64,000 bases of DNA from Octopus vulgaris (GCA_951406725.2 OX597840.1:16182001-16246000); one strand, 5' to 3'. Shown: positions 16,301-64,000, numbered from the stretch's first letter. The notes: generated from the letters alone by a model not told the origin. A program made the numbers and translations.

Positions 16301-19300
16301 GGCCATACCGTGGAGGCAACAGGCGTAGCGATGTTTCGCTGTTGGGTTCGGACACATCGGTGGAAGAGCGTGGAAAGTTGCTATGCTTTCGAAACCGTCT
16401 GAAGACTTGTCCTTTTGCATTCGTTTTAAAGCGTGCATAAGAGAATCGATTTCCTCAAGAGATAAACGATTTATATTCTTTCTTATAAGGTTTGCTCGTA
16501 CCAATTTCTTCTCGTCGCTCTCGGAATGGGCACCTGCAAAACGACAATAAATCTTACATCAATTCAAGAAATAAGCAAGCATTTTACAAAAACAATAATT
16601 TAAAAAAAATATGTAAATTAAAAGAAGGAAATCTCCAAGCATAGGAACATGAAAATATATTGGATGTGATAGAAAGTTTATCTTACCATGTTTCGGAACA
16701 AATATAATGGTTGGTTCTGGAAATATTTTCTTTTCTATCTTCGATCCATTTACAGCTCTAACTTCTGTTGAAATACGGAAGTGACTATTGTGGTTGAGCC
16801 CTAACTTCATTAGTGAATCAGTGATCTCGTAACGGAAGAGGTGAGTGAATCTCCATGGCATTTCCGATTCTCCTCCCAAGATGGAAAACACTCCGGCGTA
16901 GTTGGCACAGTTCTCTTGGTTCCGGCCAGTCGGAGCACATATGTAAATTCTAACATCGGCAGAAGCTTTCACCCCGTGCAACAAGAATGCTGCAAAAACA
17001 CGATCTTGTTGGTGTCTGTTGTGTTGCAAGAGATTTTCCAGTTGAATAACAGTGAGACCGTTGAAAGCGAGTGAGTCGTATTTGTAATGAAGCACATTCT
17101 GATAGTCGAACACATCGTTTGCTCTGCTATGAGTGAAGGTCAAAAGATTGGAGTTTGCAGTTTTGTTGCTGAAAGGACGCATTGGTTGGTTGAGCAGTCC
17201 AAGAGCACAGTTGGCACTGTTATAGGGTAATTTACGGTAGCGTTGCAGTTCCTGCCAAATGGCCCAGAGACGATCCATGTTGCTATGATGAAGGAAGAAA
17301 GCGGGGTCGTAGGCTGCATAATCAAGTGACGACATGGAATGAGGATCTCGACCACCAAGCCAAGAGTGGAGACTGTTATGAAGGACTTCTAAGTGAGTGG
17401 CAAATTCACAAAAGTCTGTTTGTTCAAAGGCGAACAGTGCATGTTCATAAAAATAGCTGTTTCCGAAGAGATTCGGTTGAGGGTCACGGTCAGTTTCTGT
17501 GTTTTCAAATGATATCTTTCCATTGAAGAAAGGATTGGACTCAATGTGAAGAGTGCGTGAATTATAGAACGTAGCTTCGTTGATAAGTTTCGGTAATTCG
17601 TCGAAAGACTTCAGCCAATCCCAGTACGGAACGGCAACTGAAGAACCTCTAGCCAACAGTTCATGCTCAACAGACACCGTATATAAACGATGCCAATGAA
17701 GGAAGTTGGGCATACCGTGCAAACAACACGTGTACACTTTGCTACCGTCTTCGTTCGGACATTTAGCAGGAAGTCCGTGGAAAGCTGCTATTCTTTCATA
17801 TGTACCATCCATCTTGATCTGTTTGAAAGCATTTCTCAGAGATTCAATTTCACCGACATCCAAATCTTCCAAATTCTTCCTGATTCGATTAGCACTCGTC
17901 ACAGGTTCGATCCAGGCACGGTCTTCGCCATAATGACCTACGAAAAACGAAAAACGAAAAGAAAGTAAAAATACAGAAATGTCATTTAATCAAAGCTTCG
18001 ACGATAGTGTTTGTAGAGCCATCTAAAATATTTTCAGACCAATTGAATTATGAACCATTCTGTGTGTAGGGAGGAGTGTGGCTAATATGACATTAAATAT
18101 TCGGTTATGTAATTATGGAATGAAAGTAATTTCGGGTTTAATTTTTCAAAGGAATTTGTAAAATTGAGAAGATAAAAATGGATTCAATTTTAATGCGGCG
18201 ATGGAATTATTATTGAATGTAATTAAATGTAAGCTTTAACTTGCCTAATCCAGGTTCAAATATGACTGCAGGTTCTAAACCAAGACTTGTCACTTCAGCA
18301 CCACTCATGTCTTTCAGTGTATATTCAATGTGGTAGAGATCGTTGTAATGGAGGTGCAGGTGTTCCATTTGTCTAGTAATGTCGGCTTTGTACACTCTGT
18401 CGAACTTCCATGGCATTTCGTTCTCGCTACCCAATACGTAGAATTCACCAGCTTTATTTCGGTCAGTACTTCCATGCAATCGGATGTAATACTCAACGAG
18501 AAGGGACTGTTTGTGACCCTCCAGTAAGAAAGTAACGAAAATACGATCCTTAGCTCGACGTTTGTTAATCTCTGTCTGCAATTGCGGGATGGACATGCCA
18601 CTGACGTCAAGTGAGTCGTATTCGTAGTGGAAGCTTTTCGTGTAGTCGAACGCATCGAAAGGAACGGAATGTTCACGGGTTTGCGAGTCAACGTTGATGT
18701 CGCTTGACAAACTGAAAGGAGACATCGGTTGACGAAGAAGCTCGATTGCACAGTTGGCAGAGTTGTATGCATTTCCTCGATGTTTCTGTAAAGCTTGCCA
18801 GATGGCCCAGATTCTATCGACGTTTGAGTGGTGCAGTAAGAAGATTGGGTCGTAAGCAGTGAACTCGAGAGAGGACATTGAATAGGGCTCAGTACCTCCA
18901 ACCAAAGCATGGATATGGTTATGTGCAATTTCAAACTGTACTTCGAACGAACAAAAGTCTTCCTGTTCAAGAGCGTAGATTACTTCATTGGTCAAAGAAG
19001 TAAATTCACCGAATTTCGGTTGGAGGAAAAGGTCAGCTGAAGGAGCACGAGATGTAGTCTTTCCTATATGGTCGATCGAACCACTGAAGAATGGGTTGAC
19101 GTGAGTTTCGCCATTCATATCGGTATATTGTTCTTCAGCTACAAGGTTCGGAAGTGCGCTGATCGGATTCAGCCAATCCCAGTAAGGAATTCCACCGTCA
19201 TAACCGTTTCGTCGTAAACCATTTTCGAAGTTCAATGTAAGTAATCTATGCCAGTGTGGGAACGTGGCCATTCCATGGTGACAACAAGCATATTTATGTT

Positions 19301-63500: not shown

Positions 63501-64000
63501 AAGTCCTTCATAACAGTCTCCACTCTTGGCTTGGTGGTCGAGATCCTCATTCCATGTCGTCACTTGATTATGCAGCCTACGACCCCGCTTTCTTCCTTCA
63601 TCATAGCAACATGGATCGTCTCTGGGCCATTTGGCAGGAACTGCAACGCTACCGTAAATTACCCTATAACAGTGCCAACTGTGCTCTTGGACTGCTCAAC
63701 CAACCAATGCGTCCTTTCAGCAACAAAACTGCAAACTCCAATCTTTTGACCTTCACTCATAGCAGAGCAAACGATGTGTTCGACTATCAGAATGTGCTTC
63801 ATTACAAATACGACTCACTCGCTTTCAACGGTCTCACTGTTATTCAACTGGAAAATCTCTTGCAACACAACAGACACCAACAAGATCGTGTTTTTGCAGC
63901 ATTCTTGTTGCACGGGGTGAAAGCTTCTGCCGATGTTAGAATTTACATATGTGCTCCGACTGGCCGGAACCAAGAGAACTGTGCCAACTACGCCGGAGTG
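54532..64000 (+). CDS. Hemocyanin copy 2 (inverted duplicate), 5' part, truncated by the window end in FU-d; join of 54532-54582, 54719-54749, 56476-57708, 58843-59305, 59946-60727, 61403-62644, 62952->64000
   Basis: Exon lengths (51, 31, 1233, 463, 782, 1242) and translations match copy 1. Confidence 0.93.
56476..57708 (+). CDS. Hemocyanin copy 2 FU-a exon
   Basis: Translation identical to 23203-24435. Confidence 0.93.
58843..59305 (+). CDS. Hemocyanin copy 2 FU-b exon 1
   Basis: Translation identical to 21605-22067. Confidence 0.92.
59946..60727 (+). CDS. Hemocyanin copy 2 FU-b exon 2
   Basis: Translation identical to 20185-20966. Confidence 0.92.
61403..62644 (+). CDS. Hemocyanin copy 2 FU-c exon
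   Basis: Identical protein; one synonymous difference (His CAC at 61641 vs CAT at 19248); GC donor at 62645. Confidence 0.92.
62952..64000 (+). CDS. Hemocyanin copy 2 FU-d exon (partial)
   Basis: Reverse complement of 16889-17937. Confidence 0.92.

What the first reader, a model, noticed from the sequence alone, without database searches (positions are those of the whole stretch)
16889..64000. Head-to-head, near-identical inverted duplication of a hemocyanin gene
Seen: 16889-26544 is the reverse complement of 54349-64000, so the arms are at least 9.6 kb with a 27.8-kb spacer. The compared proteins are identical. Differences noticed are one synonymous SNP (19248/61641), microsatellite lengths, a 20-bp tandem duplication at ~21526-21560 in copy 1 only, a ~23-bp indel (~19766-19790 vs ~61122) and scattered intronic SNPs. 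Inference: either a very recent duplication or one homogenised by arm-to-arm gene conversion, raising respiratory pigment dosage. A scaffold gap at 44604 lies between the arms, so two mis-joined haplotypes is a real alternative.
Basis: partly seen in the sequence, partly recalled or inferred. Interest (0 to 1): 0.72.

Follow-up and report, generated by a model that had tools for sequence, protein, structure and literature searches.

The report
Mirror hemocyanin twins kept by conversion
An octopus carries two mirror-facing copies of the gene for its Type-R blue blood pigment, 99.8% alike over 16 kb but only 78% alike in their untranslated tails, so they are likely old duplicates kept alike by gene conversion, a known process that my literature searches did not find described for this gene family.

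Summary
The inverted duplication is real and larger than reported. The arms are 16.1 kb (10465-26544 and 54349-70418), each a whole 7-unit Type-R hemocyanin gene, 99.84% identical (25 SNPs, 12 indels). Identity stops abruptly in the last intron; the 3' UTRs are homologous but 22% diverged, and 5' flanks are unalignable. That fits neither a fresh duplication nor two alleles. In public DNA runs the shared contig ends at this breakpoint in 3 of 4; both tails were seen in both runs laid on both copies, at about half the body depth in one. One RNA-like run holds both tails at similar depth. Both copies share derived residues (M2471, Q2819) where relatives have K: likely ongoing gene conversion. Three A/G-type genes on another contig show the same pattern. 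Orientation rests on one scaffold gap. The process is known (Drosophila Amy/Hsp70), and this scan noted similar mirror pairs elsewhere in octopus DNA.

The parts
10465..26544 (-). Arm 1: near-identical tract, from 183 bp upstream of the ATG to the inside of the last intron
   Evidence: 16,133 columns, 25 SNPs, 12 indel events, 99.84% excluding gaps
54349..64000 (+). Arm 2, the part inside the window; it continues 6.4 kb past the window end to L001:6418 (70418 in continued window count)
   Evidence: shared contig ends at L001:6418 in runs X1, X3, X4
10368..26361 (-). Copy 1, Type-R hemocyanin CDS, 13 exons, 2923 aa, intact: signal 26361-26311 and 26174-26144; a 24435-23203; b 22067-21605 + 20966-20185; c 19486-18245 (GC donor); d 17937-16687; e 16533-15512 + 15099-14859; f 14567-13906 + 12648-12066; g 11968-10763; last exon 10372-10368
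   Evidence: 99.8% to P0074, 94.7% to O. bimaculoides P0028
54532..64000 (+). Copy 2, the part inside the window (exons 54532-54582, 54719-54749, 56476-57708, 58843-59305, 59946-60727, 61403-62644, 62952-). It continues in L001: unit d to 202, 356-1377, 1800-2040, 2326-2982, 4235-4817, 4915-6120, last exon 6506-6510 with a 3' UTR to about 6726
   Evidence: 4 coding SNPs, all synonymous; copy-2 tail
13905..13910 (-). Six bases at the f1 exon/intron border of copy 1 that are deleted in copy 2 (after L001:2982), where the last 5 nt of exon f1 and the G of the GT donor are lost
   Evidence: database model P0073 lacks aa 2312-2326; intact form in runs X1 and X9
10155..10372 (-). Copy 1 terminal exon: 2 coding nt, stop, 3' UTR with AATAAA; old, unconverted homology to the copy-2 terminal exon at L001:6506-6726
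   Evidence: 160 identities, 46 mismatches, 27 gap columns vs copy 2; spliced to exon g in X9
26362..26544 (-). Shared proximal promoter / 5' UTR with a TATA-like TATATA near 26436 (mirror: 54349-54531 on +); no detectable homology further upstream
   Evidence: sequence; local score 220 vs shuffles 212 +/- 14
26545..54348 (.). Spacer, 27.8 kb: microsatellite arrays (AAT 31017-32115 and 33657-35012; ATC 45831-50841) and dispersed repeats; its two halves are not homologous
44604..44703 (.). Scaffold gap (100 N), inside a tandem run of a dispersed ~470-bp repeat unit, same strand on both sides

Best explanation
Two whole Type-R hemocyanin genes are assembled head to head 27.8 kb apart, 99.8% identical from the core promoter to the last intron but 22% diverged in their 3' UTRs, and they are likely an old inverted duplicate whose bodies are repeatedly homogenised by gene conversion. 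Shown: the arms, the sharp breakpoints, the diverged tails, both tails in the same public runs, and derived residues shared by both copies. Inferred: a break in one arm is repaired from the other arm; tracts stop where homology has decayed (last intron, upstream of -183); purifying selection on the protein keeps the coding tract similar enough for conversion to continue; the result is one protein made from two loci with different distal 5' DNA and different 3' UTRs. The 6-bp donor deletion in copy 2 is likely a young loss-of-function variant of this haplotype (or an assembly error) that the intact copy would mask.
For: (1) Sharp change from 99.84% to 68% over 326 columns, E 1e-35; UTR 46 mismatches in 206 aligned sites. 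The same tail regions differ between samples by far less: copy-1 contigs have 3/1011 (X1), 8/1010 (X3), 6/461 (X8) other letters, copy-2 contigs 0/402, 0/402, 0/369. So the tails split long before organisms A, B and D did, while the bodies differ no more than individuals do (X1 5/2266, X3 7/2138, X8 7/2224 vs copy 1). (2) The shared contig ends exactly at the breakpoint in X1, X3, X4; X8's ends 42 bp short at 10507. Both copy-specific contigs are present in 2 of 2 DNA runs laid on both copies (X1, X3). (3) Depth, body vs copy-specific: X1 41 vs 13 and 16; X4 71 vs 45; X8 14 vs 5-7.5; incidental repeat-bearing contigs shown in the same tables lie mostly at 14-22, 29-47 and 5-8. (4) At 12215 both copies encode M2471, whereas P0074, O. 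bimaculoides P0072 and three Argonauta proteins have K, and the body contig of 4 of 4 DNA runs has the K base; 11445 and 12070 show the same pattern at silent sites; Q2819 is shared by both copies against K in P0074, P0072, Argonauta, X3, X4. (5) 4 of 4 coding SNPs between copies are synonymous, P = 0.002-0.005. (6) X9 holds both UTRs, depth 3354 and 3104. (7) No shared flank within 344 kb left and 319 kb right of the gap apart from dispersed repeats; a genome search with the copy-1 tail finds only the two places.
Against: No long read or contig links the two arms, and orientation rests on one gap whose flanking repeat is dispersed (13 matches in 664 kb). Shared derived bases could also come from cross-polishing of the arms during assembly. 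The tool warns that contig depth is no copy number, and X3 does not fit two copies (body 105, with pieces at 34, 201, 264 and 540, against tails at 19-21). Only four DNA runs and one RNA-like run were laid, out of 20 holders; one may be the assembly's source. X1 and X8 carry Q2819, so that site is a looser case. No outgroup DNA with both tails was available, so the age is relative only. No homology was found upstream of -183, so the 5' end may be the original duplication breakpoint and says nothing on conversion.
Confidence: 0.8

Rival explanations
1. One-off overwrite: two old paralogs existed and the body of one was replaced once, recently, by a single long event; there is no recurrent exchange.
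For: One continuous 16-kb tract with two sharp ends; breakpoint at the same base in organisms A and B.
Against: Derived variants that are absent from the major contig of two runs labelled organism A are on both copies (12215, 11445, 12070), which needs transfer after the variants arose; body divergence between copies is no larger than between individuals.
Confidence: 0.08
2. Both genes are real, but the head-to-head arrangement is a scaffolding error at the gap (they are tandem, or further apart).
For: A 100-N gap lies between the arms; near-identical arms could attract false links; the repeat at the gap is dispersed.
Against: Gap-free sequence extends at least 344 kb left and 319 kb right; left of the gap the repeat unit ends at position 90 and right of it resumes near position 230-248 on the same strand.
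Confidence: 0.07
3. Uncollapsed alleles: one locus, two haplotypes joined at the gap.
For: Body divergence (0.16%) is at allele level; gap between the arms; the 6-bp deletion could be a heterozygous variant.
Against: Alleles would share flanks, and none align over >300 kb; tails 22% diverged; both tails in organisms A and B; tails at the depth of incidental contigs and body at about twice that in X1, X4, X8.
Confidence: 0.03
4. Very recent inverted duplication with no conversion.
For: 99.84% identity including introns and microsatellites.
Against: The homologous last exon is 22% diverged; a fresh copy would either carry an identical tail or none.
Confidence: 0.02

Closest known systems
Octopus Type-R hemocyanin (Schäfer et al. 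2021, PMC7931591; section 11, passages and supplement 4 read; author name recalled)
   Same: Copy 1 is 94.7% identical to P0028 = XP_014789836.1, which supplement 4 lists as ObH Type-R; about 70% to A/G types, as in that table.
   Different: The parts read name one Type-R gene per species and mention no duplication or conversion; here there are two copies with different tails.
Drosophila Amy-p/Amy-d and Hsp70Aa/Ab palindromic pairs (review PMC3924832; passages read)
   Same: Mirror-image linked paralogs, more alike within than between species, shared polymorphisms, flanks evolving independently.
   Different: Here the tract is 16 kb, spans 11 whole introns and their microsatellites, the spacer is 28 kb, and the terminal exon is left out of the tract.
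Enteroctopus dofleini OdH-A/OdH-G and the A/G cluster on contig C5
   Same: Near-identical hemocyanin paralogs (97.1% in supplement 4 of PMC7931591). The three C5 genes are mostly 94-100% alike across exon-rich windows and 58-62% in the 3' UTR.
   Different: C5 genes are direct tandem repeats, less homogenised in introns, and stop within exon g. PMC3945787 (passages) dates OdH-A/G to about 13 Mya as a recent duplication and has no occurrence of 'gene conversion'.
Sepia SoH3 embryonic hemocyanin (PMC3945787; passages read)
   Same: Same intron phases in signal peptide, b, e, f, and a phase-1 intron at unit g.
   Different: SoH3 has 8 units; orthology to Type-R and the position of the unit-g intron were not tested, as no Sepia sequence was returned.

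Membership tests
Molluscan (octopod) hemocyanin | Signal peptide plus seven paralogous functional units a-g | tested here: met
   2923-aa ORF in 13 exons, seven units; best PDB matches are hemocyanins; signal peptide judged by eye, no predictor run
Molluscan (octopod) hemocyanin | Copper-binding histidine motifs in every unit | tested here: met
   CxHG, WHR, HNxxH and HHxxV/M each found 7 times in copy 1; which His is the ligand is recalled, not tested. In copy 2 unit f is disrupted.
Molluscan (octopod) hemocyanin | Phase-1 linker introns; internal introns in signal (0), b (2), e (0), f (0) | tested here: met
   Phases worked out by hand from the exon lengths match those given in PMC3945787
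Molluscan (octopod) hemocyanin | Binds oxygen as a decamer in haemolymph | not testable with these tools
   Needs protein work
Type-R octopus hemocyanin | About 96% to ObH Type-R and about 70% to types A/G | tested here: met
   95.9% local / 94.7% in alignment to P0028; 70.2-70.8% to P0012, P0054, P0055, P0058, P0060
Palindromic paralog pair under concerted evolution | Linked, mirror-image orientation | tested here: inconclusive
   So in the assembly, across one gap; supported but not spanned
Palindromic paralog pair under concerted evolution | Duplication older than the split of taxa that carry it | tested here: met
   Both tails and the same breakpoint in organisms A (X1) and B (X3); tail divergence 22% against 0-1.3% between samples. 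Organism labels are coded, so their rank is unknown.
Palindromic paralog pair under concerted evolution | Homogenised body, independently evolving flanks | tested here: met
   99.84% vs 68-78% (3') and no homology (5')
Palindromic paralog pair under concerted evolution | Polymorphisms shared by both paralogs | tested here: inconclusive
   Shared states on both assembled copies at 12215, 11445, 12070, 11075 that differ from other runs; cross-polishing not excluded, no phased population data

The most novel reading that the evidence does not exclude
Octopod hemocyanin genes of both lineages (Type-R pair here, A/G cluster on C5, four Type-R and several A/G copies in Argonauta) are old clusters under continuous conversion that hold one subunit sequence for a uniform decamer while distal promoters and 3' UTRs diverge to tune expression. 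Published 'recent, independent' duplication dates and selection scans on octopus hemocyanin would then be measuring conversion, and the locus may also vary in copy number and flip its 28-kb spacer.
Probability: 0.4. Interest if true: 0.62.

Novelty: new member of a known kind. Interest (0 to 1): 0.42.

Why it matters
Hemocyanin is the octopus oxygen carrier and has been used for molecular dating and for tests of temperature adaptation. If its paralogs are homogenised by conversion, duplication dates are too young, cloned 'alleles' and 'isoforms' are mixed, and a new amino-acid variant can spread to both loci at once (as K2471M appears to have done). The diverged 3' UTRs give a ready copy-specific assay for expression and copy number, and the broken donor in copy 2 makes gene loss or rescue at this locus testable.

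Tried and rejected
No older homology upstream of the arms: local alignment score 220 vs shuffles 212 +/- 14, max 251; blastn of the spacer halves gives only repeats. No third Type-R copy in 664 kb around the locus or among the unit-d matches in the genome. The tails did not match the C5 or C28 genes convincingly (best E 0.003). The 6-bp deletion could not be judged in X3 and X4 (no informative contig), and exon f1 was poorly covered in X1 and X4, which proves nothing. A high-copy repeat in intron f swamped the tables, so the copy-2 splice joint is not listed there and is inferred from a contig with 23 unlaid leading letters and two loose ends. Of 24 runs listed five were laid: X1, X3, X9 on both copies, X4 on copy 2, X8 on copy 1; all were contigs, no raw reads, so no true read depth. 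No Sepia sequence came back, so orthology of Type-R to embryonic SoH3 is open. Literature: 9 searches; 'haemocyanin + octopus + gene conversion' 0 papers, 'octopus + haemocyanin genes + genome' 0; none of the listings seen describes a Type-R duplication. Subscription papers are not searched. PMC4491423 (passages) reports two distinct unit-g isoforms and isoforms hard to tell from alleles, with no copy structure in the passages seen. No earlier scan note on hemocyanin in this genome.

Full report
Observation. The window matches itself as one long inverted repeat, 16889-26544 against 64000-54349 (98.97% with gaps), and has one 100-N gap at 44604-44703. The window lies on contig C27 of a 2.8-Gb genome. 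With 100 kb added on each side, the match runs 10299-26544 against 70579-54349 (numbers above 64000 continue the window's count, L001 position = number minus 64000). The near-identical part is 10465-26544 against 54349-70418: 16,133 columns, 25 SNPs, 12 indel events, 99.84% excluding gaps, longest identical run 3,540 bp. About half of the SNPs lie in microsatellites.

The gene. Copy 1 (minus strand) has 13 exons and encodes an intact 2,923-aa protein: signal peptide and units a-g, each with the copper motifs. Intron phases, worked out from exon lengths, match those reported for cephalopod hemocyanins. The c-d intron has a GC donor; P0074 aligns without a gap there while models P0071 and P0073 miss 12 residues. 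The protein is 99.8% identical to P0074, 94.7% to O. bimaculoides P0028, 78-79% to four Argonauta proteins and about 70% to A/G types. Supplement 4 of PMC7931591 lists P0028's accession as ObH Type-R, so this is the Type-R lineage. The genome's other hemocyanin genes are three tandem A/G-type genes on C5 and a divergent three-unit gene on C28.

The ends of the arms. The tract begins 183 bp upstream of the ATG, includes a TATA-like box, and nothing further upstream aligns (score 220, shuffles 212 +/- 14). At the other end identity stops inside the last intron, but homology continues: 68% over 326 columns, E 1e-35. That stretch holds the acceptor, the last two coding bases, the stop and the 3' UTR with AATAAA; the UTRs have 160 identities, 46 mismatches and 27 gap columns (p = 0.22, JC 0.27). 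A fresh duplicate would not have a diverged homologous tail, and alleles would share flanks: none align over 344 kb left and 319 kb right of the gap except dispersed repeats. A genome search with the copy-1 tail returns only itself and the copy-2 tail at 71%.

Independent samples. Twenty of 24 listed runs hold the 3' region or part of it; five were laid, all as contigs. On copy 2, the shared contig of X1, X4 (organism A) and X3 (organism B) ends at L001:6418 = 70418, and a copy-2-specific contig follows with no differences. On copy 1, the shared contig of X1 and X3 starts at 10465 and a copy-1-specific contig abuts it; X8 (organism D) has copy-1 tail contigs and a body contig that stops at 10507. 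Depths, body against tails: X1 41 against 13 and 16; X4 71 against 45; X8 14 against 5-7.5. Incidental repeat-bearing contigs in the same tables lie at 14-22, 29-47 and 5-8, that is at tail depth (left out of these ranges: one long paralog-like contig each in X1 at 38 and X8 at 12). X3 does not fit two copies: tails 19-21, body 105, other pieces 34-540. The tool says contig depth is no copy number, so this is support, not proof. In the RNA-like run X9 the copy-1 tail is joined to exon g across the 390-nt intron (depth 3354); a copy-2 tail contig has depth 3104 and 23 unlaid leading letters, and two contigs leave exon g with the last exon's first letters. Both copies thus appear transcribed at a similar level in that sample.

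Signs of ongoing exchange. At 12215/68668 both assembled copies encode M2471; P0074, O. bimaculoides P0072 and three Argonauta proteins have K, and the body contigs of 4 of 4 DNA runs carry the K base; X9 shows both bases. Silent sites 11445 and 12070 show the same pattern in the DNA runs. Q2819 is on both copies against K in relatives, X3 and X4, but X1 and X8 have Q. A derived base on both loci needs transfer between them, unless assembly polishing mixed the arms, which I cannot exclude. The SNP at 11424 that separates the assembled copies is not a fixed marker: X1, X3 and X8 show the copy-2 base. All four coding SNPs between the copies are synonymous; with 21-26% of changes expected to be synonymous, P is 0.002-0.005, so both copies have likely been under purifying selection.

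A lesion in copy 2. Six bases present in copy 1 (13910-13905) are missing after 66982, removing the last five bases of exon f1 and the G of the donor. Read-through stops at 67267; the nearest upstream in-frame GT (66943) would drop residues 2312-2326 including the HH motif, which is what model P0073 does. Either way unit f is damaged. X1's contig has the six bases and X9 splices the intact junction; X3 and X4 are uninformative. It is likely a private variant or an assembly error.

Orientation. The gap lies in a tandem run of a ~470-bp repeat: the left side ends at unit position 90, the right resumes near 230-248 on the same strand. The unit is dispersed, so this supports the join without proving it.

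Mechanism. Most likely (0.8) an old inverted duplicate under recurrent gene conversion: repair of one arm from the other, tracts ending where homology has decayed, purifying selection keeping the coding template alike, tails and distal promoters drifting apart. The arms, breakpoints, tails, presence in other samples and shared derived bases are shown; the repair process, its recurrence, the age and any dosage benefit are inferred. The C5 genes show the same outline, mostly 94-100% in exon-rich windows and 58-62% in their UTRs, and in the protein tree the Argonauta paralogs of each lineage group together, which conversion or repeated recent duplication can both produce.

Known and new. The process is that of Drosophila Amy-p/Amy-d and Hsp70 palindromes (PMC3924832, passages). 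Type-R is a named gene (PMC7931591, section 11 and supplement 4). PMC3945787 (passages) treats octopus hemocyanin duplicates as recent; PMC4491423 (passages) notes isoforms hard to tell from alleles. Nine searches found no report of a Type-R pair or of conversion in cephalopod hemocyanin; subscription papers and unseen supplements may hold one. Earlier scan notes describe similar mirror pairs at other octopus loci (unchecked, seen after my analysis), so the pattern is probably common in these genomes.

Verdict. Real, well supported, a new member of a known kind; interest 0.42.

Noticed in passing
G000:C5:96.83-96.92 Mb (L021-L032): Three tandem A/G-type hemocyanin genes with 3' UTRs only 58-62% alike and patchy intron identity (e.g. 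g1 = g2 at 100% over about 1.2 kb where g3 differs): likely conversion here too.
   Followed up: partly
G000:C28:28653264-28664872 (L034-L035): A divergent hemocyanin-like gene with only three units (a-, b-, c-like; 30-44% to P0012). By eye the first two lack several copper histidine motifs and the third keeps them; open frames are intact. Function unknown.
   Followed up: partly
run X3 on window 8450-12730 and L001:2300-6790: Body depth about five times tail depth, with pieces at 201-540: possible extra or partial Type-R copies in organism B, or a library effect.
   Followed up: no
   Followed up: partly
window 32121-33265 and 41617-42769: A second, smaller inverted repeat (1.15 kb, 98.4%) inside the spacer, next to long AAT arrays.
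   Followed up: no
window 45831-50841: A 5-kb degenerate (ATC)n array just right of the gap.
   Followed up: no
window 18244 and 62645: GC-AG intron between units c and d in both copies; database models P0071 and P0073 miss 12 residues there.
   Followed up: yes
window 10762-10373: Type-R has a phase-1 intron just before the stop codon, absent from the C5 genes, whose stop lies in exon g.
   Followed up: partly
window 2965-4627 and 6900-8154: Reverse-transcriptase-like frames of two LINE fragments (my reading, family not tested); the first has 94-95% copies about 300 kb away.
   Followed up: no
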